A stretch of DNA of 64,000 nucleotides, taken from positions 5,464 to 69,463 of the forward strand of contig JBAWWL010000001.1 of NCBI GenBank assembly GCA_037146775.1. Reading direction: 5' to 3'. Source of the stretch: Candidatus Omnitrophota bacterium (lineage in GTDB: Bacteria; Omnitrophota; Gorgyraeia; Duberdicusellales; 4484-171). Under the pieces are notes generated by a model. The model was not told the origin of the DNA. It saw nothing but the letters and a program-made list of their open reading frames with translations, and made no database searches. How positions within the stretch are numbered: the first letter of the stretch is position 1; each line of letters opens with the position of its first letter. Below, piece after piece: positions 1 through 64,000 of the stretch. The translations under genes were made by a program, and so were the position numbers.

Positions 1-3000
1 GCGCGCTTTATCACCACGTAGGAACTATTAATCGAATGCTGCTTCAGTTTTATAGAGAATTGAATATTCATATGCTTTATCCTATCCATGGAGGTATTCC
101 GGAAGAAAGAAGATCGGCCAGTTATGAAGATATGGGGAGAGGAAGGATATATTATTATCCGCTTCCTGGCAAAGGCGTTGTAAGTACGCTTAGAAATATT
201 GTCCGGGAAAATAGTATTGATTTGATTGCTGATCATAGTCCGGCATCAAATATCGCATTAGCGCTTTTACGTATTGCAAAGAAAAGTCATATACCTTTCT
301 TCACCCAATGGCACATTTCGGACCTGAATCATCCCGCAGTAAATAGAGAAATTTTTGGGCAGGTTGTTATGGGCGCAGACGCGGTGGCTGCAGTAAGTAA
401 GCCCGGAGCACGCGCTATACGTCAGGAATATAATGTTGCCGCACAATATATACCTTCAGTACGCGATTTAGCCGCTTTTGATATTAGAATCGCCAGTCCT
501 GACAAAGCCCGCACCCTGTATGGTTTAGATAGAAATGAGTTTATTGTCGTTTCGCCCAACCGTATTGTTAGAGAGAAAGATCCTATAGCCATTGTGAAGG
601 CATTCGAGATGCTAAGACGAAGATTTGCTAAAGATAATTTTAGGCTTTTGATTATCGGTTCATCTACGGATATAGAGTATCGCGCAGAACTAGAACGTGT
701 CATAGACAGTTTAAATTTGCGACGACACATAGTAATTGTACAACCCACCACTGACAGAACTTTAATGCGCGATATATATGCTTTAGCTTCCAGCCGTTTG
801 GGTTATGGTTGTGTTGTGCTTCCTGCTGCCTGGGGTGAAGGTACTTCCGGAATTTTAGAGGAAGCTCAATTAATGACAGCTCCGATAATCACAACCAGAG
901 CTGGAGGTAACGCGCAGACAGTTATATTTGGTGAATACGGTTCCGCCCTAGAGGTCGGTTTTAATAAGTATGATGAGCCTGCTTCAGGAGCCAATCATAA
1001 TGAGCTTGCAGCTTCCCTGGCAACCTTAATGGATAATCCGGCCTTGGGGCTTCAGATGGGAGCAACCGGCCGAGCTTTTGTACAAGCTAAATTTAATCCA
1101 TATAATATTGTGTTAGGTATACATGCACCGCTATATGAGAGGCTTATCGCTGGTGCTAATAGGCAACGCGAATACGCGTCTTCATCTCTTTCTCGTATAT
1201 TTACTCATTATTCCCATCTAGACAGTTTACGAATTACTAACAAAGTCTCATCCACTACTTACTATGTATTATTGACTATATACCATCAAAGCAGTTCTCC
1301 GGTTTCTCCGCATACCCAAATTAGCTGGCAAGGCATTAACCGTACCATTAAAGAATCGCCATACTACAGAAAGCTTGCTTTAATCGGAAGAGTAATTCCG
1401 ATATTTTCAGAAACTGATACTTTGCATTCGCGTTTAAACCACATAAGAAGAGTGCAAAAGGTTGCCTTAAAATGGTTTTCAGAGTGGATAGGAACCACAC
1501 GTCTCACTGACGCGTCTAGGCTGGGGACCGAAGAGTCATTAGGAGATAATGCCAATTTAATTGAATTTTTTAGTATTGCGCATGAGCTTGGCGCGGTTCC
1601 TTTTCTGCATTATAGAAGAAACGCTATAAATGAGTTGGATTGCGGTCAGAAAATTATTGATGAATTATTTCTTACACAGAGCGCAATTCCTGCGCCCATA
1701 CGCGGACATTTGCGAGAGGTAAGTCTACTTTTCTTAGACAATATTGCTGATTTATTTAATGAAGCTAGGTTTGTGGTGGCATCCGAGCAGATAGTAACTT
1801 GTGTCGAAAATGTTGTTTTCGGCCTGAGAATGCAGTTACTTAGCGAAGAAGCAGCTGCTAAACTTCTTCATGATTTCAGAGAAAAATTTGGGCCTAGTAG
1901 TCTAGTCCATGTGGCAAATCTTACCGAGCCTCAACTTGATGAAAGGATAATAACACTTGCCATAGGTTTTATTGAGAGAGTACTTAACTATCGCGCTTTC
2001 CAACAAGAGTTAGGCAAAATACGGGAATTTAATGCCAGGGGTGAGCAGGCTCTCGTAGCTAAAGTACGACAAGTCTATCGAGCAGAACAATTTCAGGCAG
2101 TTATGGCTATTGTGATAAACAGTATAAGTGGAATTTTTCACGGGGATAGGCGTTTGGTAGAAAGTGAACTTTTTAAATTAAGCGAGCTTGATGTACTTAA
2201 CCGGGCAGCTACTTTGAGAGGAAAGAGCCAGGGCAATTGGCAGGAGCGTTTGCTTAATGCCGGCCAGTCTCGAGCTCAGGCGGAAAGGGTATCTCTTACG
2301 CAAGTTGCTCAAATGCGTTTCAGTGGACACAAAAATATTTTTGAAATAAGCGCTGAACTTAAATTAAGCCCGCAATTAGTTTGGCTAATGATCCAACGTG
2401 CACATATAAAACGTTTGATAAGAAATCCTCTGTCGCCAGGAAAAACATTGCCGCATCTTGAAACTCTCCTTGTGCTCTACGCTATGGTTATTACTCCTTT
2501 TGTAAGTAAAGAATTGGGTGTAGAGGTGGCTTCTCTACCCCAGGTGCCTTCTGAAATTTCCGAAGCGGATATGCCGGTAGTTCTGCAAAGGTTAGAAGAA
2601 TTCTTAGTAATTCTTGAAAATACTTATGCTGACCCCAGGCTTGGATTTGACCGTCTTTTTAAGATAGGATGGGTAAGTTCTCAGGAACGGTTAGGCGTCG
2701 CAGGGCCATTAGCAGCGGTCTTTCGTTACAATTTAGTTTATCTGCGTTTGAGCGGTATTGAAAGAAAATCAAGAAAACAATCAAACAATGTCCGTTATAT
2801 CACCCAGGATGTTTTGGAAGCAAAAATGAAAGGCTCACGTCGCCGTAAGCAAAGTGGATCGCTTTTGCAACAGATAGAAAAAGGCAATTGTGTAACACTT
2901 GTGAGAAGGCTTGGTATCATTGCCCAAGCATTTAGCTCTACGGATTTTGTTATTAAAGGCCTTTTTCCCGAAACAGAAGATAGATTTAGGCTGGTTGTGG

Positions 3001-6000
3001 GGTTACTGTGTAGCGTTGAGCACGTTGAAACTGCGCGTACAATTGTACTGGCCGCAGAAAAAATCAATCAACCTAAAAAGAAAGACGAACAATCCCAGGC
3101 GCCTGGTGCGTTAAAGATAACAAAAGATACGCCCTATCAAGAGCTTATAGACTTTTTATTTAAGTCTAATACCTATGCCGAAAGCAAATCAGGCATGTAT
3201 TGCCTCTCTGGCGGTGCATTTTCTGTTTTTGGATATAATTTACGTTTATTATGTAAAAGAGGAATACCTAGTGAAGGCGTAAAAAGAGAAAGACGAAACG
3301 TTAATGCTCAATTGTCAACCGCCCACATCCTGCCGGAAGATATTGCTTTTTGTATTGGCCGCCGCGGCCCAAGCACCGTGAGCGAATTGGTGAGGGGGCA
3401 TACGGCCATCGTAAGGCCAACTATTGTGCTTATACATGTAATCGTTATGGCGTTAGCTGATGAAGCTAATTTTAGCTTAGATGACGTTACTTTAGCGGCA
3501 CCTAATAGATTAAGAGAAGTAACAAATTTCCTTTTTAACCCTGCCTTGATTAGACAGGCACTTATGATTGTTGATACCGATGAAGAATTAAGAGGTGTTG
3601 CTGTTTTAGAGCGAACTAAAACATCCATAACCCAGGCCGCGAGGGGTGGAGCGAATTTTTATGTTGAAATCAGGAAGAGGTTATTTCCGGATAATGGCGA
3701 ATGGGAGCTTAGCGGTCCGGGCAAGAGCGTGTTTAGCTATAATTTAAGTATGCTACAGAGAAGAGCAGTTACCCAGGAACATCTAAGAGCGAAAAGGAGA
3801 AATGTAGTGAAATTAGCGGCTGTACCTCAAAAGAAAAATCAACAATCACCCACACAGATAATTACTTCCGACGATATCGCTTCGGTTATGCATAGAAATA
3901 GTGGATTTTGCGGAAATTTAAACAAGGTTAAACTTAACATAACTACTCTACACGCGCTTAGCTTAGCTTTATCCAGGGAAGATGATTTTGTTCTTGATGA
4001 TGTTAAACAAGGGGTGGGGGATAGAGTTGTAGCGGTAATAGATTTACTTTTGGGTGTCGAGCGTTTGGGAGAGGCGAGATTAATGCTTGAGCGTGTACAG
4101 CAATTAGAGGGCTGTGGTTTTCCGTTTGAAGACGCAACAATTATAATTGATGCTAAGACGCCAGTGGATATTGTTGCAAAAGTTACTGCTTCTGCTAAAG
4201 GCGCTGCAACCGTGCTTGGGCCAAATAGTTCTGTAATTTTCAGCACAAATTTAAGGGGGATGTTCTCTCGCCGCGGTCCGATTCGCTATAGGGATTTAGC
4301 TCTGGGATTACATACAACGCCAAAAGCTGTACATAATCTGAAAAATACTGAACCGGCTGTCTACTTAGAGCGCGTACACAGTGTTATTTTAGTAATGGCG
4401 AGCTTAAAAAGCACAGATTTCAAAACCACACTTGATGAATTATTTCCTGTTACGCTTCAGGTAGCTTCTTCGCCATCCGTAAATGCACTGGGTGAGGCTT
4501 CATCTCCTTCTCAGGTAAAAGTTCAGCTTTTCAGATACTCTAGAGATGTTCGTTTCAGCGAACATACATTTGAGATTCTTGGGAAAAGATTTGAATTATT
4601 TGCTAACGGATTCTTGCGTATCGAAACACCGCAGGAGGCGATCTATCTTTCCCTAAACCATCGAGATACCTATGGTTTTATGGTGGCAGAATATAAAGCC
4701 GGACGTATCCAGGGCAACGAAGACTTCGTATTTATTGATAATAGTTGGCATCCGGATAATAACCCGCTTAGCCGTCCGGCTCCCGAACTTTCTGAGCCAC
4801 TCGCAAGACATATTGCTTTTATGCGCACAGATAGTCGTTCCAATAGTTTTGTCAGCGCCGTAGCACATGCTTTCAACGCTATGCCGCGTGTATTCCTTGC
4901 CGAGAAAAGACCTTTAGTAGACTGGGGTGGCTGTGATTTCGCAGATCGGGCACCAATAACGCGTTATCCAGCGGCGCAGTCTAATTCTATCTCTAGCGTT
5001 GATTGCGATATTATTATTAAAATAGCAATTTGGGGCCTGCACCGCAACCATCAAGCTTTGTTGCGACATGTGTTGAGAGTGATTATGCCCTCAAAACTTA
5101 AATTGATACATATTAGTCCTTCCTTTAACGGAGAACATTCCGATACGGTTACTAACTTTGCGCAAAACCTTATTGAAGGTATTTTAGCCGAACGCGGAAT
5201 CTTTAGCATAGGAAATCGCAGGAATGTTATTTCTTCCGCTGTTATCTTATCGAACGAAAGGGATGCTCTGATTCAATCAGTAATAAATGTTTTTGGCATT
5301 GGCGAAGGTTTAACTTTAAGCCGCAGTGATATTGAGGCAGCAATTAAGATAGATACTACAGATGATCCTTATCGTATTAGCCGTAATCTTCCGGTTGTAC
5401 TTGCTTTAGGTGGAGATATTTACAGAAATTGCCAGCTGAATCAAAAGCCGTTATTGATAGCGTTCGTGGGCAGGGGCACGGTTAATGAACAAGGTTTAAT
5501 TCTTGATGCTCAAAGCCGGCAAGGCTTGGCTTGTGAAGGATGCCGCCTGGCTAATTCCATGGAAATCAAAAACGCCATCTGGGAAATACCTTATCATGGC
5601 AAAAAGACTACTTTTATCATACAAGATAAAGATAACTGGTTGGCTATGCCGGTTCTCTATGGCCCAGAAGATATTTATCAAAAAGGATTATTAATCGGAA
5701 AAGGCGGAGACAGAATTACGCGTTTAGGCCATGATATCGCCCAAGATACAGGTGTCGCTAATGAAGATGGGATATTTGAGGATTACACAAAAGCTTTAGT
5801 TACTGCAAGGTTGTTAGGTTTTTCTATTCTTGACGGCCCGGATATGATGCGTGATGTGGATAGAAGAATGGGCTTGATGGTTAGAGCGGCAAGGGCGACA
5901 GCAACGGATATTAGCGAATTTGCTTTAACACACACCGGTTACCCGGTTTTCCCTCAGAATGAATTCCTCAAGGTTACTACCAGCAATCCCGAGAATGAAG

Positions 6001-9000
6001 GTGGTTTTTCTCATACCAGCTGGATGGTTACTAGCCGTGGAGTGGTACAGGGAACAATTAGCGCTTTACGTTGGATTTTACATGTGCTTACGGCTCATAC
6101 CGGAGAATATCCGCAGGAAGTAGTTGATTTCTTAAAGCGCCTTAATATTAATTTCGATAGTTTGAGTGGGCTTATCCAGGGCTTTGGCGATGTGGGAAGC
6201 GGTATCGCTAAGCTGCTTTTGACTGTTTTTGAAGTATTTAATATAAGGATACGCGGTTTCTCTAATAAATATTTTGCTATTTATCGAAAAGACGGTTTGC
6301 CGCAAGAATTCGTTATGGAAGCCCGCCGCATCGCCGAAGTTTCTCCGGATGCTCTTACGGCTTTACGTTTACTTGAGATGAGTTACTTTGGGGAAAACCT
6401 TTCCGGAGCAACGCTGTGGGTAGCTAATCCGTCAAACAGAAAAACGCAAGTTGCATTATTATCTCCGGCAGATATAGCAAGATTATCTACCCAGTGCCAA
6501 AGCAAAGGTGTTAATGCTACTTTTGGCGATGCCGCAATCGTAAACGAACTTATCTATCAAGAAGCTACGCTGTTATTTCTTGCCGCCGGTGCAAATATTA
6601 TTATTGATCCGGAACAAATCAATAGACTACAAGCTTCGGTGATATCTGAAGGAGCGAATAACGCTATCAAAATGGATCTTCAACCGCAACTGCGCCGCGC
6701 AGGGAAATTATATTTGCCGGGAGAACTCTTGAATGGCGGAGGAATTTATACTTCCAAGGAAGATATTCGGCACAATCATACCGATGGAGTGGCGGCGATA
6801 GTCCATAACGGAAGCTATTATCATACTCATGTTACTGACGAGATAGATTCACTTGTCTTGCATCGTACTATTTCCTTACTTGAGCGCTGGGCTGAAACCG
6901 ATGCAAACTTTGCCTTAGATTTTACTGAGCAGATAAGAATAGTAGCCAGAGGAATTTCAAATAGAGCAGATAGTTTAGTCAGAGAAGGAAACCGCCGCTT
7001 GATGCAATTTGCAGCTATTGACCAGGAAAGAGTCAGAGACCGTTTGAGTGGACAGCCGAGATTGCCTTTGCGGCATTCACTTTACGAAATTGCCATGGAA
7101 ATGGCTCCTGCGGGAATTTTATATCGGCCGCAAGATGTGGGTAGATATTTAGAACAATTAGAACGATGGCAATTTATGGTTTGTGAAGACGGCCGTATAG
7201 ATAATTACGATATTTGTCAATTACGGCTGCTTCTTTTTGTTTTGATGAAAATGAGTTACTACCTTAAGGCAGATCAGCGTAGCAGGCTTATCGCGGTGCT
7301 TACTTCAGCTATCCCTAATAAACACATTGATAATTTAGTGCGCAAAGAAGCTTTGGTTTGTTTAACTATGGTAGTAATGTGGCATGCTCATAATCGGCAA
7401 GATGTTGTAGACAGAGCGGTTAGTTTATGCCGCGATATCTTAAGAGATCCTTCGGAAACTGCCCGGTTACATGTATGGGCACAATACTCACTTTACCGGA
7501 TTATGGGAATTGGTTATTTAGAGCAAGCTCAGCTATTAGGCTCCGATACCGCAAGTTACCAATCTTTACCCGCCGCGCAGATAGCTGAAACTTTATGGCA
7601 TAATGCGCTTGTACTTACCGCGCAAATTCTGGGCGTGCATAGTGCAGATGAAGTTGTAAATAGGTTACGTGTTATCGGCGATCGGTCCGCTCACGGCCAT
7701 TTCAGATATATTCTGGCAACGTTAATTGCTCAACATTTGTCTATGGCGATACCCGGCATACGTAGCATATGGGCTTTTGGTGATGTGGGCGATACTGAGC
7801 GAGCTCGTCCAAATTCTGATTTAGATTTTATTATTGAAGTTGCTAGCGAAGATGCGCGTGCTCAGGTACGCGAATATTTATTTATTATCCTAAACAGGTA
7901 CCTTACTGAACAATTTAACGCCATGATGGATGGAACAGGCGTCCAAAGAGCAGGGTTGATTGAAGCCGACCACCCGCAAGCGCCACGTATACTTTTAACC
8001 CAAGAAGTTTTACAAGGTATAGGGCTTGCCGTGTTGATTCCTTATCCTGGCAGGCTCAGCGCATATCGAGAAGGATTGGCTACGTTGTTATTTCCTGCCA
8101 CTATTGAACAGCTATGGCAGAATACGGCAACAAACTCCAGCTCATCGCTTGAGAATAGATTTAATTCAGAGAAAGTTTCTTCCTTGGGGGCAAATATTGT
8201 TGCCTTGCCTTTTGTCGGGCGGGGGAGGGTTTCTTCATCTTTGCCAAACACGGTTGCGCTTAATGATTTAGATTTGCAAACCGCGGAGTTAATCGGCCAG
8301 GGTGCTTCAGCCAAGATATTTAAAGTTTCTCACGGAAAAACAGGGATGAAGTTTGCCTTAAAGATTTATTGCGGCCAGAGTTTATTATCTGAGGGTCAGA
8401 GTAGAGAGAAAGCCAGAGCTATTACCGCTTACGTATTAAAACTTTTTGGCCAGCACGCACAATTAGCCGAAGAAGGATTTATGCCGCGCTATTACAGCAG
8501 AGGCGAAGCGGCTTTTGATTTTAATACGGGAATAAGTTCTGGACAAATATATCCGTATTTTGTTATGGATTATCTTGACGGAGAAGCTTTAAGTAAACTT
8601 TTATTCCGGCAACATGCGGCTGTTTGCATAAGAAGCGCATTGCCCGGTGCAAGCTTAGATACATCTGCAGAACCCCACTGGCCACACACTTTAGCTGACA
8701 GGTTATGTCTTGCTATGGCTATAGCGCGCGCTTTAGAAAAATACCATAAAGAAGGATTGCTAGTGAAAGAATTAAAACCAGAAAATATTATTGTCCGTCC
8801 AAGCCACAAGGCTTCTTTGGTTGATCAGGACGGTATTGTGCCTCTTGGCTATGATTGGCTGATGAACCCTGAGCATATTCCTGAAATAGTGCGCGCCATA
8901 CATGCTGAATTATTCGCTGAGGATATTTCTCCGTTTATATACCGCGATAGCTTTTTAGAAAAGAAATTATTTACTGAACAATGGGATATTTATAGCTTTG

Positions 9001-54000: not shown

Positions 54001-57000
54001 TTCCTGGTTTAGGCACTTTTACTATTTTCGAAAAGAAAGGGGCGCAAAGATCTTTAATGGTAGTAACGCCGACAAGAGGGGCAAGTTACAAAGTCAAAAG
54101 AGAGCTTCTTAAAAAGGCGATACAAAGTGCCCATAGGCGCGGTATCGCGGTGCCAAAAATAGCTTTGCTTAGTTTTACGGAACGGCCGAAAAAGTTCATG
54201 AAGATGTCCTCAATAGCCGACAGCGTAAGATTAGAAAAATATTTTAGAGGAGGATGCTTCTGGAAACATTTATTGTGGTTGTTTTCATGGCTATGCCCGC
54301 CGGCTTTCAGATATTTTTCCTGTATTGTTGAAGGTCCGATGGCTTATGATATTGCCGTCTCTAAAGAATCAGCACGCATTAAAGGCTTTATGCCCCAAGA
54401 CAAAGAAAGCCGGGTTGCCGGAGAGCCGGATATATTATTTACTCCGGATAACGTTTCCGGGTATTTGCTTAGCGGCGTTTATAAAAACTGGAGTAAGCTG
54501 AAACTTCCTTGGCCTGGTGCAGATACCTCTCTGGGCGGAAAAACTCCCGAAGGAAATATTTATTCCGTAGTCGCTCCTTCACGAGCAGATAAGGATAGCC
54601 ATAAAAAAGATTCCTTAACTACCACTTTATTTTTGGTGGCTAAACAAATAGAAGCCCAAATGGCTTTAGCAAGCTCCTCAGTTTCTATGTTGAGTAGTGT
54701 GTCTCCAGGCCATGAGGATGCCGTAGGTATGGGGGCTGCTATTTATCTTTCTATGTATGATAGGGTTTTAGCGGCAAGCCATGCGTCAGAAGAGACTAGG
54801 CGCTTACTTGTCGCGCAGGCCATTAGCTTGGGCGATTTAAAGAGCAAATCACTAGACTCAACTAACAATTCTGCGCTTTTTTTTAATGTTGCGATAGAAA
54901 CAGTATTCCTTCAGGCATTTTTACGTACTTCCGGTATTTATCACGATGTCATAGAATTAATCTTTGGTATTGATTCGCTTTCCGATGACATTAATCGCTT
55001 TAGAGGAAGTTCTAGAGAATTCTTAGATATACACCATACTCCAATTTTATCTCCAAGTTTATCCGAATACGTAATAGAAACAATGAAAGAATGGAGAAAA
55101 TATGGCGCTGAAGCGCAGACAAAAGCCTGGCAGTTTTTAGGGCAATTATTTCAGCGAGAAATAAATATGGAAATGTTATATTCGTTACATCAGCGTTTAA
55201 TGGCTATGCATATGTTTATAGATGCGCGATGCATAAAAGTGGTTGCTTTATCAATGCAATATAAACAAGTTTCCTCACCAATAGGAAATGATCAGGCTGT
55301 AGAATCATTGAGGCAAATGATCATTAAAAAATTTATGATCCGGGGCATGGAAAGTATTCTTACTATTGGTAGGCTCAAGGAATTATTGGCAATAGAGATT
55401 CTAGCTCCGCGTGATGTCACGCGGATTCTGAGAGGTGTTGGATTCAAAGGAGGCCAAGTTGGCGAACTTATAAAAATGATCAACACCAATAAAAAGCGTA
55501 TTTTTCAAACAACGGACGATGATGCAGAAATAGATTGGGAAGTTCTTTTAAGAGAATTTGCCGGAGTCGCTGATCCAAAAAGGATAGAGGCTACAAGACC
55601 TTTATGGCTTGAATACTTTAGGCAATTGCCTGCTAATGCGCGGGTGCTTGATGTTGCTACCGGCAACGGTGTTGTCGCTGATATGGCAACTGGTGTGTCT
55701 AATGTTTTCGATCTTCACGCAATGGATATTGCTATAGTTATTGATAAATGTCTTCAGACGGGGCGTATTCATTATTATCAATTTTCTGCCGAGGACCTTG
55801 GAACACAGCGACAACTACTTTCATTCCCAACTCATTTTGATGCTGTTACTTGCATGCACGGATGGGAATATTCAAGAGATAAAAGTGCAGTGCTTAGAGG
55901 TATTCGTGTTTTACTTATTCCTAACGGGCGAGTGCGTTTCCTTATTCATCACAAAGATTCTATTACTGCCAAGGGTGCTCGAGGCTTGCTTATTGAGATG
56001 AAAGCAATCAAGGAAGCAGGGCTTATTCAGAAAGCCAGAGATTATCTGCGAACGCCAGATATAAATACATATAGAATTTTATCTGGATGTATGCAGGCAT
56101 TAACTCCAAGATTGAAACAGATGTTAGAGAGAGAAGGTTTTAAGGTAAATCCTGGTAATGTCGGAGAAAGAGTATTAGCGCCTTTAGGCATTGATATTAA
56201 TACTGCCGTAGGTAAAGCGACGTTTGGTATACAAACTTCTCTTGATTATTTTGAAGAAAGAGTTTCGTTTTATAAAAGATGGGAGCAATTTCAGCGTTAC
56301 TTTTTAGAGAGGATCGCTATGTATGGGGATGCTAATCGTCAGGAACTTTTAACTATCATGGCTGACAATGGTTTTGAGGTCGATGCGCTTGAGCATTATA
56401 CCGCTCTTGGAAATAATCTTTTAGGGTGGAAATTGGATATGCATAAAATTGATCTCGGGCAAACTGGTTCTTCACCGCTTAATATTTATGATCAAAGCAA
56501 TAATCGGTTGCGGCAGAATATTGGAAGAGACAGCCTCACCGTGGCTGGTGGCGTCTCTTTTGCTGCCGCAGCCGGTATATATACAGGTAGCTATCACGAT
56601 GATATTGTATTGCCTTATCCTTTCAATGGTTCGGTTTTCTCCAGTAAAGCCCCGCCAGCTGTTGTTTACGCTCGAAATATCAGTTCCCCAATTATTTTCG
56701 ACATAGCCCCCCGGTTTACCATTAAGGAAGCACCTCTTCTCAAAAAGATCACTCCTGAAATAATGCAGAGATTTAAAAGTTACGGTATTTCTTGGCTTAT
56801 TGCAAGCCCGCAGGCAACTTTTGAATGGTATTCGCAAGGCCTGTTGTTGTATGCGCCTAGTGATTTTGCCGGTACATTTTGGTCGGAATGCGGCTTAACT
56901 AGAGAGGTAACAGGCAGTATTGTCTGGCAAAACAATATAGATGCGATAGAAATGCACATTCCGGTTAACCGGCGTTTTTATCATAGGCCGGTTAATCCTT

Positions 57001-60000
57001 CAACAGGAGCATTAACCCATTCTTTAGTAGAGCAGCCAAGGCCTGACTCTGTCATGCACGGCATTGTTCTAACCCGAGGAGGGTTTGTTATTGATGCTAC
57101 TGATTTCAATCCTTTCTTTAAAGAAAACAAACCTTGTGTTCCTTTAGAACAATATCCTTTGCAAGAAACCATTCATGTAGCGCTGAGGCGAGGTAGCTTT
57201 CAAAGAGTCAGGCCACATATCCATAAAGATTTTATGGGGACAGCCTTTAGCTATTTTACGTTTGATAGCCAAGGAAAGATTGTCTTTGTAACCAGGCCGC
57301 TATCCGCTTGTTATCTTGATCGTGAAAGGTTTATCAGTAGTTTTCTCGGTTTCGGTTTTGATAAAGACACGCGTTGCGGCTTAGAACTGGTATTTTCTGT
57401 GAATACAGATTATAACGTTTTCAGTAGAACACACGGATTATACGATATCGTGCAAAGCTATCGCTTACTCGCGCACGTGCCTATCTTAGAATGGCCTCAG
57501 TATCAACGCCGGATAAGACAAGCGTATCAACATGGTGATGTGTTAGAAATGAATAATTGTTTTCAAGGGGAATTCGTAAATAAGAATTTAGGCGGAACAG
57601 AATTAAATAATGCTTTGCAGTTTTTCCCGCATGTTCCGGATGCATTACCGAGTGTGTGCGCTCAAGCTATGAAAGATTTTGCTTTATGGTTTGCTTTTAT
57701 GTCCAAGCTTCCAACTTTGCCGTTACAGCACATTGCTTCGTTGTCTTACGCAGTGAGCTCATCAATTATGCAAAGCAGTTTTGCTTGCGTTAACCAGGTA
57801 GTGAAATACTGGATCGCTGAATTAAAAGGTTATGCGCGAGAAAGAAGAGTTAAGGTTAAATTTATTGAGTTAGCAAAGGATGTTATCATGTGGGATGTTT
57901 TTGACCAGCAAACGCAGCAGTTTGCCTTGGATGTCTTTTGCAGAGAATTGCTGGTGAATGCCATTAAGTATTCCAAGAATCGCGGCAGATTGTTTAGTTG
58001 TCTTACACGAGAAAAAGTAACGGTTACTCTGCAGCAAGTAGGTAGCGATATGGTTTTACAGTTTTGTGACCAGGGTATTGGCGTTATGCCTGATGAGCTT
58101 GGTTTTATCGGGAAAGTCGTTCCTTATAGAGCATCTAATGCAATACGGCATACAGATCAAGGTGCAGGATTAGGAATTGGCTGGTGCGTAAAAATCATCG
58201 AAGGGGTGTATGGCGGAACTTTTACAATAGAAAGTGAAGGTATAGATAAAGGTACTATCTCAACCCTCCGTATTCCCGAAGCGCAAGCTCAACGCGTCAG
58301 TTCAGGCCAAGTTAGCTCGCCGGCCTTTGGCAAAACCGTGTTCCTTGCCTCGCCGGATCGCCTCTCGGCGAAGCCGAGGGCAGGCAGGCAAACCCGCATT
58401 GGAACATGGTTTAGGGTTAGCTCGCCTTTAACAAAACCTTTCCGTCTGCCGACGGATTCAGCACAAACTCATTTTGAGGGTAGCAGTAGCTTTTATGTTA
58501 CGGTTAACGCAGAAGAGGCAGAGAAATTAGTTGGCCCGCTGTTTAGCCAGCCCAAAGCGAATCTGGCTTGCCAGGTTATACATGGCATTGTCAGGGTTCC
58601 AAAAACTTTAGCCCACCGGCCGTACCACGCTTTTTATCATTTAAGTAGTGATAGCCGTTTTGTGCCACTTTATACCCAAGAAGGGAAACTGGCTGTGGTG
58701 AATGATTGGGGCACCGAGAAACGCGTTGTCTGCCGCAAGTTGTTTGAGTTAATTGAGGGCCGGCTCCCGGCCAATGAAGATGAACTTACTCTGTGGATGG
58801 CTGCCGCAAAAAAGGATGAGGCGCAAAAGCCGTTTCCTACCAGAGATAGCGTTCGTTCTCTTCAGCCCCACTGGGGAAAGAGGATACGCCGGGTATGGGG
58901 GGAAATTAACTACTGCCGTTTAGATCTTCATTTTTCGGTCGGTAAACTTACTGGTTCTTTTTCTCTGAAACATTTGCCGATGGTGGCAAGAATTGTATTT
59001 TATGCCGATCGAGGTTATCTGCCGGCTGTTAGCGAACTCGCGATATTTATGGATACGCAAAGAAACAAAGCCTTTAATACCGGCCGTCGCTTTCCAGGAA
59101 AAGAGAAGCTATCAAAGGCATTAAAGGCAATCTGTGGTGTGGATTATGACCGTTTTGCCCAGGCTGCAAAGATTCATCACGGCCGCATGGCAGGCTTGCA
59201 GGAACGATTAGGTTACAGCGTTTTAAAGAAAAAAGGCAGAGCATCGCTGTCTTTACGAATTAACGCTGATAAGAGAGTTTACGAAAGTCTTTATGGGCTT
59301 AAGGCTGCTAGTCGAGATGAGAAGGCCGCATTTGATGCTTGGAGAAAGCACCAGAAGCGTTATCATCGGCCGCCGCTTCGGCGCGAAATTCCGAATGATT
59401 TAGGTATAGCCCTGGCACATCGGCCGGCCGGCGTGCGTAGTTATTTTATTAGTTTAGGTTTTTCCTACGAACAGTTAGACCTTAACGATAAATTTACGTT
59501 TCTTGTCGAAGCTTACCATGATCTTACCGGATTCTTTCCTGCACCGCAATTAAAGGATGACATCAGGCAATGGGATTGGCCATTACCGATTTCGCGAAAA
59601 GATTTATCAAAAGCTACGCAAAAAGCCTTATCTATTCATAGAGGGGTAGTTGAAGTTACCGGCGTGATTGCTCCGAAATACGCTTTACCCGTTTTAGTTA
59701 GGAGCGTGGCGGGTATCTCTTGCGGTGAAAACGATACCACTGAGGTTCTTGATTATGAGACGGCCTGTGCAGTATTAAAACATTGGGTACTTCATGATGC
59801 TCTTGATCTTACAGCTTCATTACAGTCGTTGGATGATAGATATTTCTCTGCGCACGCACAAAACCCGCAAAACTTTCCACGGACATTTATTGATTTCTTG
59901 CGTACTGACGTGGGTCGGCTTGTAACGATAACACTTAATACATCGCTGCACTTTCAGAATCGTTGCTATGACCGGATGGTTCGCGTGAGAGAAACCACTG

Positions 60001-64000: not shown

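What the first reader, a model, noticed from the sequence alone, without database searches (positions are those of the whole stretch)
1..64000. Entire 64 kb window is the interior of one giant gene (over 21,000 codons with no start or stop)
Frame 3 on the + strand is open from nt 3 to nt 64000. A random 42-45% GC sequence would hit a stop roughly every 20-25 codons, so an open run of 21,332 codons can only be coding. The protein is recognisably made of real enzyme folds throughout, not repeats or low-complexity filler. Giant genes above 60 kb are rare in bacteria. The multi-megadalton proteins reported from candidate phyla such as Omnitrophota, and cases like the Chlorobium giant proteins, are mostly adhesin-like or repeat-like. 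A giant protein that is largely a concatenation of diverse catalytic domains would be unusual and may be undescribed. The supplied ORF track contains only short decoys, so a standard gene caller or length-capped pipeline could miss or fragment this gene.
Basis: partly seen in the sequence, partly recalled or inferred. Interest (0 to 1): 0.95.

Follow-up and report, generated by a model that had tools for sequence, protein, structure and literature searches.

The report
Interior of an Omnitrophota giant multi-enzyme gene
The whole 64 kb window is a stop-free stretch of one enormous gene of the kind already described in the tiny, probably predatory Omnitrophota bacteria, and it reads as dozens of ordinary enzymes joined by a recurring short peptide motif that may mark where the giant protein is cut or hinged.

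Summary
Frame +3 has no stop in 21,332 codons, while the other five frames have 907-1,876. Coding-type base composition holds in every 3-kb bin.

The frame encodes about 20 different, mostly catalytically intact enzyme and signalling domains. These include a full-length GlgB, a fused GH77-like/GH133 debranching unit, a GT4 glycosyltransferase, GDH-like and Zn-ADH-like dehydrogenases, an SGNH hydrolase and a phosphotransbutyrylase. There are also two methyltransferases, three Ser/Thr kinases, a LMW-PTP and a histidine-kinase ATPase. I found almost no internal repeats and no convincing transmembrane helix.

Nearly all collinear relatives that carry a source name are Candidatus Omnitrophota MAG fragments, and several have contigs that are open end to end. 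Giant multi-enzyme ORFs of this phylum are already published, up to 85,804 aa and 147,155 aa. So this is a new member of a known kind, not an undescribed class.

One feature appears to be new. The polypeptide is punctuated 36 times by [V/A]-S-S-P-[L/V/I], against 4.65 expected (P = 3e-20). The motif is encoded by 31 codon combinations, avoids domains and brackets enzyme-sized units. A related giant ORF uses a different motif, [E/D]3-[C/P]-LDNGG, 16 times. These may be processing sites or conserved linkers; this is inferred, not shown.

The parts
3..63998 (+). Single open reading frame of 21,332 codons, open at both window edges (interior of a giant gene)
   Evidence: No stops in frame +3, against 907-1,876 in the other frames. 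Codon-position composition is uniform.
132..1142 (+). GT4/GT1 glycosyltransferase, glycogen-synthase-like (aa 44-380)
   Evidence: Pfam Glycos_transf_1 2.5e-12 and Glyco_transf_4 3.8e-7. NCBIfam glgA_Coryne 8e-10.
1317..4448 (+). About 1,040-aa repeat module (aa 439-1482), probably helix-turn-helix-type, bracketed by SSP motifs at aa 431 and 1489. A paralogous module at aa 9463-9999 contains the HTH_3 hit.
   Evidence: Self-BLAST. Homologs P0122, P0127 and P0129 at 24-30% identity. HTH_3 6e-7. The HTH character of the first module is inferred from its paralogy to aa 9463-9999.
4500..5225 (+). Arginase/ureohydrolase-fold unit (aa 1500-1741) with no Pfam model. A paralog lies at aa 4702-4913 (nt 14106-14741).
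   Evidence: AF2 with alignment A2 gave pLDDT 90.4 and pTM 0.89. Foldseek top hits are agmatinase 3pzl and peptide arginase 8brp. H/D/HPD/SxDxD columns are invariant. Stand-alone homologs are 230-290 aa.
5229..7532 (+). Divergent Glu/Leu/Phe/Val-dehydrogenase-like module (aa 1743-2510), conserved in many Omnitrophota giant fragments
   Evidence: Pfam ELFV_dehydrog 1.6e-9. A profile of A3 hits PDB glutamate dehydrogenases at 4.5e-14. 52-64% identical to P0123, P0124 and P0125.
8280..9212 (+). Ser/Thr protein kinase 1 (aa 2760-3070). The G-loop and beta3 Lys are present, and the catalytic-loop Asp is replaced by Glu.
   Evidence: Pkinase 9.5e-7. Motifs read.
15030..20324 (+). Fused glycogen-debranching unit (aa 5010-6774): GH77-like 4-alpha-glucanotransferase, an amylase-C-like domain, GDE_N and GDE_C (GH133). 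It is bracketed by SSP at aa 4999 and 6844.
   Evidence: GDE_C 4.9e-55, GDE_N 3e-18, GH77 3.8e-5. Collinear 39-48% identity to L002, L003, L006 and L008. WRLDxLH, VEQLG and THDS columns are invariant.
31704..32342 (+). Zn-dependent alcohol/threonine-dehydrogenase-like domain (aa 10568-10780)
   Evidence: ADH_N 2.2e-8. NCBIfam Tdh 5e-8. GHE and GxGxxG motifs are present.
34353..34976 (+). SGNH/GDSL hydrolase (aa 11451-11658) with GDS, GTND and DxxH blocks intact
   Evidence: Lipase_GDSL_2 4e-17. Motifs read.
36387..38279 (+). Complete 1,4-alpha-glucan branching enzyme GlgB (aa 12129-12759) with the catalytic Asp/Glu/Asp present
   Evidence: NCBIfam NF003811 at 885 bits (cut-off 741), covering profile positions 5-618 of 619. 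E = 2e-214 against PDB 6joy, with RFDAV, AEEST and SHDEV aligned. 60% identical to the stand-alone 635-aa GlgB P0172.
38583..38870 (+). SAM methyltransferase 1 (aa 12861-12956)
   Evidence: Methyltransf_11 6.6e-9. GCGDS motif I present.
42426..42728 (+). Low-molecular-weight phosphotyrosine phosphatase-like domain (aa 14142-14242) with a CX5R(S) P-loop
   Evidence: LMWPc about 1e-3, below the Pfam cut-off. CSANENRS motif read.
43296..43811 (+). Ser/Thr protein kinase 2 (aa 14432-14603) with an RD catalytic loop
   Evidence: Pkinase 1.9e-10. IRDIKPSN read.
51543..52322 (+). Ser/Thr protein kinase 3 (aa 17181-17440), a paralog of kinases 1 and 2
   Evidence: Pkinase 1.8e-8. Self-BLAST 1.5e-28 to kinase 1. 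Motifs read.
53271..54638 (+). Phosphate butyryl/acetyl-transferase (aa 17757-18212)
   Evidence: PTA_PTB 1.1e-11. NCBIfam phosphate butyryltransferase 4.5e-29.
55608..56147 (+). SAM methyltransferase 2 (aa 18536-18715)
   Evidence: Methyltransf_23 1.3e-8. DVATGNG motif I present.
57729..58304 (+). Histidine-kinase-type ATPase (aa 19243-19434) with N, G1 and G2 boxes
   Evidence: HATPase_c 1.6e-10. NCBIfam histidine-kinase models at 3e-9. Motifs read.
1293..60770 (+). 36 copies of the punctuation motif [V/A/S/T]-S-S-P-[L/V/I]. The first Ser codons are at nt 1293, 4467, 4500, 10086, 11859, 14664, 14997, 20532, 21621, 21780, 22797, 25332, 25425, 27591, 30099, 31668, 32997, 34308, 35748, 35829, 38373, 44691, 46116, 49539, 49644, 49791, 50145, 50202, 55272, 56469, 56682, 58314, 58419, 60048, 60099 and 60762.
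   Evidence: 36 observed against 4.65 expected, P = 3e-20; VSSP is 37-fold and SSPL 31-fold enriched. 31 different codon combinations encode it. None lies inside a Pfam/NCBIfam envelope, and one lies inside a homology block.
35769..35837 (+). Extended linker RLRQxFGGQAGRQxxSxSSP upstream of GlgB. A homologous copy lies downstream at nt 38313-38381.
   Evidence: Self-BLAST of aa 11919-11980 against 12767-12828, 37% identity, 1.7e-7. Sequences read.

Best explanation
The window is an internal 64 kb slice of one giant protein-coding gene from a member of the phylum Omnitrophota. It belongs to the published 'multi-enzyme metabolic cluster' / Archaeovorin-like class. The ORF is at least 21,332 codons long, and both ends lie outside the window.

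The polypeptide is a chain of roughly 30 or more protein-sized units of about 240-1,100 aa (a few reach about 2,100 aa). Most recognisable units hold one ordinary enzyme or signalling domain with its catalytic motifs intact.
- Glycogen set: a GT4 synthase-like domain, a GH77-like transferase fused to a GH133 glucosidase, and a complete GlgB.
- Other metabolic enzymes: GDH-like and Zn-ADH-like dehydrogenases, an arginase-fold hydrolase (two copies), an SGNH hydrolase, a phosphotransbutyrylase and two SAM methyltransferases.
- Signalling set: three Ser/Thr kinases, a LMW-PTP, a histidine-kinase ATPase and HTH modules.

This stretch has no convincing transmembrane helix, and its enzymes need ATP, NAD(P), SAM, CoA or intracellular glucan. 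I therefore infer that it sits in the cytoplasm.

Units are separated by a lineage-specific, peptide-level motif, [V/A]-S-S-P-[L/V/I]. I infer that this motif is either a protease processing site, which would make this a bacterial polyprotein releasing separate enzymes, or a conserved hinge in a tethered enzyme array.

Shown: the open frame, the domain content, the intact motifs, the Omnitrophota relatives, and the motif statistics and placement. Inferred: the localisation, translation as one chain, and cleavage or hinge at the motif.
For: Open frame and uniform coding signal.

Domain content:
- About 20 distinct Pfam/NCBIfam families, with a maximum copy number of 3.
- GlgB scores 885 bits, above the equivalog cut-off, with the catalytic triad aligned to PDB 6joy.
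- Catalytic motifs of the kinases, LMW-PTP, GDSL hydrolase, methyltransferases, ADH and HATPase are present.

Relatives:
- L002, L003 and L006 are Candidatus Omnitrophota MAG contigs that are open end to end and collinear at 43-47% identity over about 1,000 aa.
- L008 is a 22.4-kb fully open stretch of a 66.8-kb metagenome contig. It carries the same GH77-GDE unit plus methyltransferase, HATPase, GT2, RPE and HEAT domains.
- Named homologs of the dark region are Omnitrophota partial proteins, with one Parcubacteria exception.

The published descriptions match.

Transmembrane content: only 6 segments reach KD >= 1.8, against 17 in shuffles, and none reaches 2.2.

Motif:
- SSP occurs 36 times against 4.65 expected, P = 3e-20, and the enrichment is order-specific: PSS 2, TSP 1, STP 1.
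- 31 codon combinations encode it.
- None of the 36 lies in the 19% of residues inside Pfam/NCBIfam envelopes (p about 5e-4). One of 36 lies in the 37% covered by envelopes plus homology blocks.
- Motifs flank homology blocks within 7-12 aa: 431|439, 1482|1489, 1500|1511 and 4999|5010.
- The AF2 model of unit 1500-1741 is a compact fold whose ordered part starts 6 residues after the SSP and ends 10 residues before the next degenerate site.
- The motif is also enriched in the closest relatives: P0123 10 against 0.97, P0124 14 against 1.03, P0129 4 against 0.4.
- In P0123 a guanylate kinase (aa 411-550) sits between SSP402 and SSP651.
- L008 instead has 16 copies of [ED]3[CP]LDNGG with synonymous codon variation. 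They bracket the homologous GH77-GDE unit (1,830 aa, against 1,845 aa in the window) and a 277-aa ribulose-phosphate epimerase unit.
Against: - There are no marker genes in the window, so the phylum assignment rests on homologs only.
- The gene ends, any peptidase domain, SecA-like domains and TM anchors lie outside the window and are untested.
- There is no read, transcript or peptide evidence that the ORF is expressed or translated as one chain.
- Several long relatives (P0122, P0127, P0142, P0157, the L010 genes) show no comparably enriched motif, so punctuation is not universal.
- Some unit boundaries carry only degenerate sites (SSA, SSS) or none. Three intervals of 1,700-2,100 aa lack the motif.
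- Ser-rich linkers in general are mildly enriched (SSS 4.5-fold), so part of the signal could be linker composition.
- Proximity of motifs to Pfam envelope edges alone is not significant: about 4 of 34 edges lie within 35 aa, against about 2 expected (my estimate).
- A 98%-identical contig from another sample carries an in-frame TGA.
Confidence: 0.85

Rival explanations
1. This is an extracellular, membrane-anchored predation machine. Under this reading the giant protein is exported, and this stretch adheres to and digests prey cell walls, as proposed for Archaeovorins.
For: This is the published hypothesis for the class. Glycosyl hydrolase and transferase domains are present. Most long Omnitrophota proteins are predicted to carry TM helices or signal peptides. 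The relative L008 does have strong hydrophobic segments.
Against: The 21,332 aa contain no segment with KD >= 2.2 and fewer hydrophobic 19-mers than shuffles. The carbohydrate enzymes are glycogen-specific (GlgB at equivalog level, GH133 debranching, GH77-like), not murein- or S-layer-active. Kinases, dehydrogenases, methyltransferases, the phosphotransbutyrylase and the HK ATPase need ATP, NAD(P), SAM or CoA, which are cytoplasmic cofactors by established biochemistry. No adhesin, dockerin, HEAT, TPR or lytic transglycosylase domain was detected in the window.
Confidence: 0.12
2. The protein stays as one intact megadalton scaffold. Under this reading the SSP motif is only a conserved flexible hinge, or a modification site such as a target of the embedded Ser/Thr kinases, and is not a cleavage site.
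For: No peptidase domain was found in the window. The motif is short and Ser/Pro-rich, like many interdomain linkers. SSS and VSS are also enriched. Three kinases and a phosphatase are encoded in the same chain. Some boundaries have degenerate or missing motifs, which a linker tolerates better than an obligatory cleavage site.
Against: The order specificity (SSP 36, PSS 2, SPS 7, TSP 1) and the fixed flanks [VA] and [LVI] are unusual for a mere flexible linker. A second lineage uses a completely different, eight-residue, near-invariant motif ending in Gly-Gly, which resembles protease sites more than hinges. Motif doublets 10-70 aa apart resemble spacer peptides.
Confidence: 0.4
3. This is an assembly or consensus artefact. 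Several separate genes would have been joined into one frame by mis-assembly or by polishing that removed stops and frameshifts.
For: A 97.9%-identical contig from another sample (L009) has TGA where the window has TTA (aa 1368). In relatives, homologous modules occur in separate large genes (L010) or in two ORFs split by a single in-frame stop (L011). Reads could not be examined.
Against: Joining about 30 or more genes in one frame with none of roughly 1,300 expected stops cannot arise by chance. Composition is uniform and there are no repeats that would promote chimeras. Four independent assemblies from other samples give fully open contigs of 3-22 kb over homologous regions. There is no excess of start codons or Shine-Dalgarno sites at unit starts. 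Long-read complete genomes in the literature show the same phenomenon.
Confidence: 0.03
4. The ORF is a decaying or non-translated relic, or it is expressed mainly through internal initiation as many separate proteins rather than as one chain.
For: No expression data exist for this sequence. About 70% of the residues have no recognisable family. The dark region aa 7001-8250 has no detectable homolog.
Against: A relic would accumulate stops, and there are none in 64 kb. Catalytic motifs are intact across many domains. Dark regions are conserved at the protein level in other Omnitrophota, and one folds confidently. SD plus start signals after motifs are at background level, 8 of 36 against 7.9. 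Peptides of a V. archaeovorus giant ORF have been detected (cited).
Confidence: 0.05

Closest known systems
Omnitrophota 'multi-enzyme metabolic cluster' giant proteins (Nielsen & Lui 2026, bioRxiv 10.64898/2026.06.07.730766)
   Same: Many distinct Pfam families tile one very long polypeptide and none dominates. The sugar-metabolism module (GT1, glycogen enzymes) and the signalling module (Methyltransf_11, HATPase_c) co-occur. Sequences are nearly unique, while the domain repertoire recurs. The nearest relatives are Omnitrophota.
   Different: Those proteins are reported as almost always TM- or signal-peptide-bearing, with about 2% of residues in TM helices. This 21,332-aa stretch has essentially none. 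The paper does not use the words cleavage, linker, motif or processing, so the punctuation motif is not described there. The full length and ends of the present gene are unknown.
Archaeovorins, with the V. archaeovorus LiM 39,678-aa protein as type (West-Roberts et al. 2023, bioRxiv 10.1101/2023.11.21.568195; Kizina et al. 2022 as cited there)
   Same: A giant Omnitrophota ORF with glycosyltransferases (glycogen-synthase-like), methyltransferases, glycosyl hydrolases and central-metabolism enzymes. Post-translational cleavage into smaller products was hypothesised.
   Different: HEAT and TPR repeats, NUDIX, peptidase and SecA_DEAD domains and TM helices are not found in this window. Those authors favour an extracellular cell-wall-degrading role and state that cleavage points are unknown. 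Here the content looks cytoplasmic, and candidate boundaries are visible.
Viral polyproteins and multi-core RiPP precursors (for example cyanobactin PatE, and double-glycine leaders cut by C39 peptidases). This is an analogy only, from my own knowledge.
   Same: One translation product has functional units separated by a short recurring recognition sequence that differs between lineages. The LDNGG motif of relative L008 ends in Gly-Gly, like C39 peptidase substrates.
   Different: No protease has been identified here and no cleavage demonstrated. The scale is 10-100 times larger, and the units are housekeeping-type enzymes rather than capsid or replicase proteins or short peptides.
Eukaryote-type bifunctional glycogen debranching enzyme (transferase plus GH133 glucosidase), and the bacterial alpha-amylase+GDE_N+GDE_C proteins seen as hits P0006-P0046
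   Same: The unit at aa 5010-6774 combines a glucanotransferase-type domain with GDE_N and GDE_C (amylo-alpha-1,6-glucosidase) in one chain.
   Different: The transferase part resembles GH77 (weak Pfam hit, conserved D/E/D-like columns) rather than GH13. The unit is embedded in a giant ORF rather than standing alone.
NRPS/PKS megasynthases and adhesin-like giant proteins (for example Chlorobium chlorochromatii, and the dockerin/TSP3-type Omnitrophota giants)
   Same: Very long bacterial ORFs.
   Different: No condensation, adenylation, KS, AT or carrier domains, and no dockerin, TSP3, Ig-like or other tandem repeats. Self-similarity is minimal.

Membership tests
Omnitrophota giant ORFs (over 20 kb; Seymour et al. 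2023, PMC10066038) | Single ORF longer than 20 kb | tested here: met
   At least 63,996 nt is open in frame +3.
Omnitrophota giant ORFs | Encoded in an Omnitrophota genome | tested here: inconclusive
   There is no marker gene in the window and the source contig was not found. All three collinear loci in GTDB species representatives are Candidatus Omnitrophota MAGs, as are 5 of the 6 source-named homologs of aa 800-1999. The support is strong but indirect.
'Multi-enzyme metabolic cluster' class (Nielsen & Lui 2026) | Many distinct Pfam families tile the polypeptide and none dominates by copy number | tested here: met
   About 20 distinct families. The highest copy number is 3 (Pkinase), and methyltransferases occur twice.
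'Multi-enzyme metabolic cluster' class | Sugar-metabolism and signalling/regulatory Pfam modules (GT1, Methyltransf_11, HATPase_c and others) | tested here: met
   Glycos_transf_1, GlgB, GDE, GH77, Methyltransf_11 and _23 and HATPase_c are all present.
'Multi-enzyme metabolic cluster' class | Membrane-anchored architecture (TM helices and/or a signal peptide; reported for 100% of proteins >= 50 kAA) | tested here: not met
   Within the window only: no segment with KD >= 2.2, and 6 with KD >= 1.8 against 17 in shuffles. The rest of the protein lies outside the window, so the whole-protein status is unknown. The method is a hydropathy scan, not DeepTMHMM.
Archaeovorins (West-Roberts et al. 2023) | Glycosyltransferases, methyltransferases and glycosyl hydrolases on one giant Omnitrophota protein | tested here: met
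Archaeovorins | Peptidase and NUDIX domains; HEAT and TPR repeats as the commonest domains | tested here: not met
   No Pfam hit at E <= 0.01 in the window. Relatives do carry them: HEAT in L008 and an M28/M20 peptidase in P0123. They may lie outside the window.
Archaeovorins | Divergent SecA_DEAD domain; N-terminal region with a C39 or S8 peptidase | not testable with these tools
   Neither is detected in the window. The N-terminus and much of the gene lie outside the window, and the contig could not be extended.
Dockerin-type / tandem-repeat-scaffold giants | Many copies of dockerin, TSP3, WD, NHL or HEAT repeats | tested here: not met
   No such Pfam hits. There are only 9 weak internal similarities and one 32-nt tandem repeat.
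NRPS/PKS megasynthase | Condensation, adenylation, thiolation or KS, AT, ACP domains in repeating modules | tested here: not met
   None was found in Pfam or NCBIfam scans of the whole translation.
1,4-alpha-glucan branching enzyme GlgB (the unit at aa 12129-12759) | Full-length match above the NCBIfam equivalog cut-off, with the GH13 catalytic Asp/Glu/Asp | tested here: met
   885 bits against a cut-off of 741, profile positions 5-618 of 619. RFDAV, AEEST and SHDEV align to 6joy.
Proteolytically processed polyprotein | A recurring short site between functional units | tested here: met
   36 copies of [VA]SSP[LVI], placed outside domains. L008 has 16 copies of LDNGG.
Proteolytically processed polyprotein | A cognate protease and demonstrated cleavage products | not testable with these tools
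   No peptidase in the window and no proteomic data. This needs the full gene and an experiment.

The most novel reading that the evidence does not exclude
Omnitrophota giant ORFs of the multi-enzyme type are bacterial polyproteins. Under this reading, lineage-specific punctuation motifs mark the points where a co-evolving protease, or an autocatalytic step, cuts the megadalton precursor. The motifs are [V/A]-S-S-P-[L/V/I] in this gene and its close relatives, and [E/D]3-[C/P]-L-D-N-G-G in the MTKX01038301.1 gene. Cutting would release dozens of ordinary cytoplasmic enzymes in fixed stoichiometry. These would include what may be the cell's own glycogen-metabolism and signalling enzymes. This would supply the 'cleavage points' that West-Roberts et al. 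said were missing, and it would mean that current metabolic reconstructions of this phylum overlook enzymes hidden inside giant genes.
Probability: 0.3. Interest if true: 0.85.

Novelty: new member of a known kind. Interest (0 to 1): 0.55.

Why it matters
The giant gene adds one more example to a phenomenon that is already documented. It is a clean one, because 21,332 aa of non-repetitive, TM-free, catalytically intact cytoplasmic-type enzymes argue against a purely extracellular or adhesive role for this class.

The useful new lead is the punctuation motif.
- It gives an objective way to cut giant ORFs into units for structure prediction and annotation. One motif-delimited unit folded at pLDDT 90, whereas an arbitrarily cut 971-aa stretch, folded without an alignment, gave pLDDT 37.
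- It makes a long-standing question directly testable by N-terminomics or targeted proteomics: is there one giant protein, or many products?

If housekeeping enzymes such as GlgB exist only inside such ORFs, annotation pipelines would understate Omnitrophota metabolism. This applies to pipelines that cap gene length or that give one label per gene.

Tried and rejected
Sequence and homolog searches:
- An exact 43-mer from the window end was not found in genome contigs, metagenome contigs or viral contigs. The contig could not be identified or extended.
- A homolog search with the dark region aa 7001-8250 found nothing, not even a self hit.
- A GlgB-unit homolog search found only ordinary stand-alone or tandem GlgBs at up to 61% identity. 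It found no embedded relative with conserved linkers.
- The look-up of the P0124 contig returned 'not on record'.

Structure and family scans:
- Single-sequence AlphaFold2 of aa 10990-11960 gave mean pLDDT 37 and was uninformative about linker order.
- A Pfam scan of the 17-member arginase-fold family gave no hits.
- Rfam, tRNA and tandem-repeat scans of both strands found nothing relevant.

Readings considered and rejected:
- NRPS/PKS, adhesin and repeat-protein readings, because no such domains are present.
- The motif as a DNA-level repeat or recombination site. The 36 SSP sites use 31 codon combinations, and the LDNGG sites also vary synonymously.
- The motif as pure Ser/Pro composition, because permuted tripeptides are not enriched.
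- Internal translation starts at unit boundaries. SD plus start signals occur after 8 of 36 motifs against 7.9 for random positions, and the distance to the next Met is not shortened.
- A universal punctuation motif. No comparable k-mer was found in P0122, P0127, P0142, P0157 and other fragments, or in the L010 genes.

Full report
**1. Observation**

Frame +3 of the + strand has no stop codon from nt 3 to nt 63998, which is 21,332 codons. The other five frames have 907-1,876 stops, and their longest open runs are 74-183 codons. With this base composition a stop is expected at 6.2% of codons. The chance probability of such an open run is about 1e-592.

GC is flat at 0.41-0.46 along the window. 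All 21 consecutive 3-kb bins show GC1 > GC2 > GC3 and purine-rich first positions. The coding signal is therefore continuous and not confined to islands.

No Rfam family, no tRNA and only one 32-nt tandem repeat occur on either strand. Neither the start nor the stop of the gene lies in the window.

**2. Content of the frame**

I scanned Pfam and NCBIfam over overlapping 1,250-aa pieces. Amino-acid coordinates are (nt-3)/3+1. The scans found:
- GT4/GT1 glycosyltransferase, aa 44-380, with weak glycogen-synthase similarity.
- A Glu/Leu/Phe/Val-dehydrogenase-like domain, aa 2043-2258.
- Protein kinases at aa 2760-3070, 14432-14603 and 17181-17440.
- GH77-like 4-alpha-glucanotransferase, about aa 5230-5346.
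- GDE_N, aa 6029-6195, and GDE_C, aa 6366-6768 (E = 4.9e-55).
- HTH_3, aa 9631-9674.
- Zn-ADH/threonine-dehydrogenase-like domain, aa 10568-10780.
- GDSL/SGNH hydrolase, aa 11451-11658.
- A complete GlgB, aa 12129-12759.
- Methyltransf_11, aa 12861-12956.
- LMW phosphotyrosine phosphatase, aa 14142-14242 (weak).
- Phosphate butyryltransferase, aa 17757-18212.
- Methyltransf_23, aa 18536-18715.
- Histidine-kinase-type HATPase_c, aa 19243-19434.

The GlgB match is exceptional. It scores 885 bits against the NCBIfam equivalog model, whose cut-off is 741, and it covers profile positions 5-618 of 619. Against the solved GlgB 6joy the match has E = 2e-214, with the catalytic RFD-AV, AE-EST and SHD-EV segments aligned. 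It is about 60% identical to stand-alone 635-aa GlgBs of many phyla.

By direct reading these catalytic motifs are present:
- The G-loop and beta3 Lys in kinases 1 and 3.
- The catalytic-loop Asp in kinases 2 and 3. Kinase 1 has Glu at that position.
- The CX5R(S) P-loop of the phosphatase.
- The GDS, GTND and DxxH blocks of the SGNH hydrolase.
- Motif I of both methyltransferases.
- GHE and GxGxxG of the ADH.
- The N, G1 and G2 boxes of the HATPase.

In the GH77-like domain the columns WRLDxLH, VEQLG and THDS are invariant among three to four Omnitrophota sequences. From my knowledge of GH77 I read these as the Asp/Glu/Asp triad. This is an inference.

Two 'dark' modules were resolved further.
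- A profile of aa 1743-2510 with its homologs hits glutamate and leucine dehydrogenases in the PDB at E = 4.5e-14.
- The unit at aa 1500-1741 has a paralog at aa 4702-4913 and has no Pfam hit for any of 17 family members. With a 17-sequence alignment it folds at pLDDT 90.4 and pTM 0.89.
- The best solved matches to that model are agmatinase, peptide arginase and guanidine hydrolase, at probability 0.99-1.0 but only E about 2.5e-3 and TM 0.4-0.5. This agrees with the invariant H, D, HPD and SxDxD columns.

Self-comparison found only nine weak internal similarities, so this is not a repeat protein. About 70% of the residues remain without a recognised family.

**3. No membrane segments in the window**

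A Kyte-Doolittle scan with a 19-residue window finds 6 segments at or above 1.8, against a mean of 17 in shuffled sequences. It finds none at or above 2.2. The relative L008 has four segments at or above 2.2 in 7,454 aa.

The recognisable enzymes depend on ATP, NAD(P), SAM, CoA/acyl-phosphate or intracellular alpha-glucan (established biochemistry). Together with the lack of TM segments, this makes a cytoplasmic location the most likely one for this stretch. That is inferred, and the hydropathy scan is cruder than a trained topology predictor.

**4. Source organism**

A 43-mer from the window end is absent from the genome, metagenome and viral collections.

The GDE region finds ordinary debranching enzymes at about 30-35% identity. 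Its best hits are fragments labelled Candidatus Omnitrophica, from contigs of 3.0-3.5 kb. Those contigs (L002, L003) are open from end to end and align collinearly with aa 5133-6301 (44% identity) and aa 5463-6489 (47%).

I scanned one genome per GTDB species with an alignment of the non-GDE part of this unit. It returned only three loci. All three are Candidatus Omnitrophota MAG contigs and all are fully open.

The JGI metagenome scan returned L008, a 22,364-nt stretch of the 66.8-kb contig MTKX01038301.1. L008 has no stops in one frame. It carries methyltransferase, GT2, HATPase_c, GH77, GDE_N/GDE_C, ribulose-phosphate 3-epimerase and HEAT repeats.

An exhaustive HMMER search with aa 800-1999 found 45 relatives. 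Many are long partial proteins of 2,000-5,800 aa. Several of the ten I looked up span nearly their whole contig. Five of the six that carry a source name are from Candidatus Omnitrophota, and one is from Parcubacteria.

One 951-nt contig, L009, is 97.9% identical in DNA to the window.

The assignment to Omnitrophota is therefore strong but indirect.

**5. Mosaic architecture**

Relatives share modules, not overall order.
- L008 matches the window only over aa 5010-6774.
- P0124 matches aa 1750-2510.
- P0122, P0127 and P0129 match aa 439-1508.
- P0123 carries the aa 4398-like module upstream of the aa 1743-like module, which is the reverse of the window order.
- In L010 the aa 439-1482-like module sits in a 3,442-aa gene between two other large same-strand genes.

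**6. Comparison with the literature**

- Giant ORFs over 20 kb are reported in most Velamenicoccia genomes and in other Omnitrophota classes. Peptides of the 39,678-aa V. archaeovorus ORF have been detected (PMC10066038).
- West-Roberts et al. 2023 describe 46 Omnitrophota genes over 90 kb, up to 85,804 aa. They define 'Archaeovorins', rich in glycogen-synthase-like glycosyltransferases, methyltransferases, glycosyl hydrolases and glycolytic enzymes. They propose an extracellular, cell-wall-degrading role and possible cleavage by C39 or S8 peptidase domains. [quoted passage not shown]
- Nielsen & Lui 2026 catalogue 916 proteins of at least 10 kAA, up to 147,155 aa. They name a 'multi-enzyme metabolic cluster' class with sugar-metabolism and methyltransferase/HATPase modules. 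They report that 94% are TM- or signal-peptide-bearing. One of their surviving hypotheses is inner-membrane-anchored enzymes with cytoplasmic domains.
- A 2026 preprint adds a curated 71,949-aa example.

The window fits this class.

**7. A punctuation motif**

*Enrichment.* Scanning for over-represented k-mers showed that Ser-Ser-Pro occurs 36 times against 4.65 expected. It is the most over-represented tripeptide in the protein (Poisson P = 3e-20). The first-order Markov expectation is 10.7. VSSP is 37-fold and SSPL 31-fold enriched. The permutations PSS (2), SPS (7), TSP (1), STP (1) and GSP (1) are not enriched.

*Consensus and coding.* The consensus is [V/A/S/T]-S-S-P-[L/V/I], often preceded by a hydrophobic or aromatic stretch. 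The 36 sites use 31 different codon combinations. The constraint therefore acts on the peptide and not on the DNA.

*Degenerate sites.* A position-weight scan adds seven degenerate sites (SSA, SSS, SSV, SRP). Four of them sit just before kinase 1 (aa 2744), just before and after kinase 3 (aa 17165 and 17513) and just before the phosphotransbutyrylase (aa 17747).

*Placement.*
- None of the 36 strict sites lies inside a Pfam or NCBIfam envelope. Those envelopes cover 19% of residues, so (0.81)^36 is about 5e-4.
- Only one, aa 4888, lies inside the 37% covered by envelopes plus homology blocks (probabilities are my arithmetic).
- Sites lie 7-12 aa outside the ends of homology blocks: 431|439, 1482|1489, 1500|1511 and 4999|5010.
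- Sites lie 4-32 aa outside domain edges: 10556 before 10568 (ADH), 11436 before 11451 (GDSL), 12759 before 12791 (GlgB) and 19434 before 19438 (HATPase).
- Proximity to Pfam edges alone is not significant by my estimate.

*Units.* The intervals are protein-sized, with a median of 443 aa. Most recognised enzymes sit alone in one interval. In the AF2 model of unit 1500-1741 the ordered fold spans model residues 7-231. It begins 6 residues after the SSP and ends 10 residues before the next degenerate site, ISSAV. Sites also occur as doublets or clusters 10-70 aa apart. GlgB is flanked on both sides by homologous linkers, RLRQxFGGQAGRQxxSxSSP.

*Relatives with the same motif.* The motif is shared by the closest relatives: P0123 10 against 0.97, P0124 14 against 1.03, P0129 4 against 0.4. 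A control pool of 116 ordinary debranching enzymes gives 20 against 15. In P0123 the domains are arranged as follows:
- Starch synthase, then SSP402.
- Guanylate kinase (aa 411-550), then SSP651.
- An M28/M20 peptidase, between SSP1011 and SSP1794.

In P0124 and P0123 the GDH-like module begins right after an SSP.

*A relative with a different motif.* L008 lacks SSP but has 16 copies of a different, longer motif, [E/D][E/D][E/D]-[C/P]-L-D-N-G-G. LDNG is 124-fold enriched, again with synonymous codon variation. Its sites also avoid Pfam domains. They bracket a 277-aa ribulose-phosphate epimerase unit. They also bracket the homologous GH77-GDE unit, at 2924 to 4754 (1,830 aa) against 4999 to 6844 (1,845 aa) in the window.

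*Limits.* Several other long fragments show no such motif, so punctuation is not universal or is not always this sharp.

*Prior reports.* Neither key paper mentions such motifs, and full-text searches found no report.

**8. Mechanism**

Best supported: one giant ORF encodes a chain of enzyme-sized units, and this stretch is cytoplasmic. It combines three sets:
- A glycogen set: a synthase-like GT, a GH77-like/GH133 debranching unit and GlgB.
- Other central-metabolism enzymes.
- A kinase, phosphatase, HK ATPase and HTH signalling set.

The boundaries carry a lineage-specific peptide motif. I see two readings of the motif that I cannot separate.
- (a) Protease or autocatalytic processing sites, which would make this a polyprotein. 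In favour: the near-invariant motif of at least five residues in L008 ends in Gly-Gly, reminiscent of C39 peptidase substrates. Peptidase domains are reported in this class. Site doublets look like spacer peptides.
- (b) Conserved hinges or modification sites in an intact scaffold. In favour: no peptidase is present in the window. Some boundaries are degenerate or lack the motif.

Internal re-initiation is not supported. Shine-Dalgarno plus start codons follow 8 of 36 sites, against 7.9 for random positions.

**9. Caveats**

- No read-level validation was possible.
- L009, the 98%-identical contig from another sample, has TGA where the window has TTA (aa 1368). It shows 8 synonymous and 9 non-synonymous codon differences in 301 codons, some probably contig-end errors. 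This could be an assembly error or a real nonsense allele.
- L011 shows two ORFs in the same frame separated by a single stop.
- These points do not undermine the window's own open frame. They do show that strain-level interruption of such genes should be checked.

**10. Verdict**

The finding is real and correctly read as the interior of one giant gene. Its kind is already described, so it is a new member of a known kind. The motif-delimited unit structure appears to be unreported. It makes the open question of one protein or many products directly testable.

Noticed in passing
L008 (metagenome contig MTKX01038301.1, locus nt 2-22363, frame 2): This related giant ORF is punctuated 16 times by [E/D]3-[C/P]-L-D-N-G-G, at aa 191, 328, 480, 1266, 1397, 2142, 2734, 2924, 4754, 5058, 5299, 5427, 5825, 6113, 6390 and 6599. 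Codons vary synonymously. All four strong hydrophobic segments (aa 372, 4791, 5330, 5368) lie 31-69 aa after a site.
   Followed up: partly
window nt 4104-4106 (aa 1368) versus L009 (ena:ERZ27245777:k141_678016): A 97.9%-identical contig from another sample has an in-frame TGA where the window has TTA. It also has P->L in the second SSP of the 1489/1500 doublet. This is either an assembly error or a natural nonsense allele that splits the giant gene.
   Followed up: partly
L011 (ena:ERZ27250192:k141_1162715), frame 1, codon 4643: The 4,634-aa relative P0123 and the following gene of at least 1,171 aa are in the same frame, separated by a single stop codon. The cause could be a sequencing error, a real split or readthrough.
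   Followed up: no
L010 (ena:ERZ24794671:NODE_508, 93.9 kb contig), locus nt 1-26049: The homolog of window module aa 439-1482 lies in a 3,442-aa gene. That gene is flanked on the same strand by a gene of over 3,867 aa and a gene of 1,800 aa. This is a 'split' arrangement of large genes rather than one giant ORF, and no punctuation motif was detected there.
   Followed up: no
window nt 35769-35837 and 38313-38381 (aa 11923-11945 and 12771-12793): GlgB is flanked on both sides by homologous linkers, RLRQxFGGQAGRQxxSxSSP, as if the enzyme had been inserted into, or together with, a duplicated linker cassette.
   Followed up: partly
window nt 4500-5225 and 14106-14741 (aa 1500-1741 and 4702-4913): Two copies of an arginase/ureohydrolase-fold domain belong to a family with no Pfam model. 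The family also exists as stand-alone 230-290-aa proteins and in a Parcubacteria protein (P0135). Putative metal-ligand columns (H, D, HPD, SxDxD) are invariant.
   Followed up: partly
window nt 8280-9212, 43296-43811 and 51543-52322: The three Ser/Thr kinase domains are paralogs that share a QWDIY(S/A)FG motif. Kinase 1 has Glu in place of the catalytic-loop Asp (VKELKPEN), so it may be a pseudokinase or an atypical kinase.
   Followed up: no
window nt 49539-50210 (aa 16513-16736): Five strict and one degenerate SSP site cluster within about 220 aa of polar, basic, low-complexity sequence. The window's only tandem DNA repeat (CAGAGGT x4.6, nt 49658-49689) lies inside this cluster.
   Followed up: no
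P0124 (MBP7216038.1, Candidatus Omnitrophota), aa 278-330 and 1135-1187: An exact internal duplication of about 50 aa includes two SSP sites. It could be a collapsed or duplicated assembly repeat or a recent linker duplication. It inflates that protein's SSP count by two.
   Followed up: no
window nt 21003-24752 (aa 7001-8250): This 1,250-aa piece has no Pfam or significant NCBIfam hit. It also has no detectable homolog in the word-indexed search of 5.8 billion protein clusters, and it does not find itself. The source protein is therefore apparently absent from that collection.
   Followed up: partly
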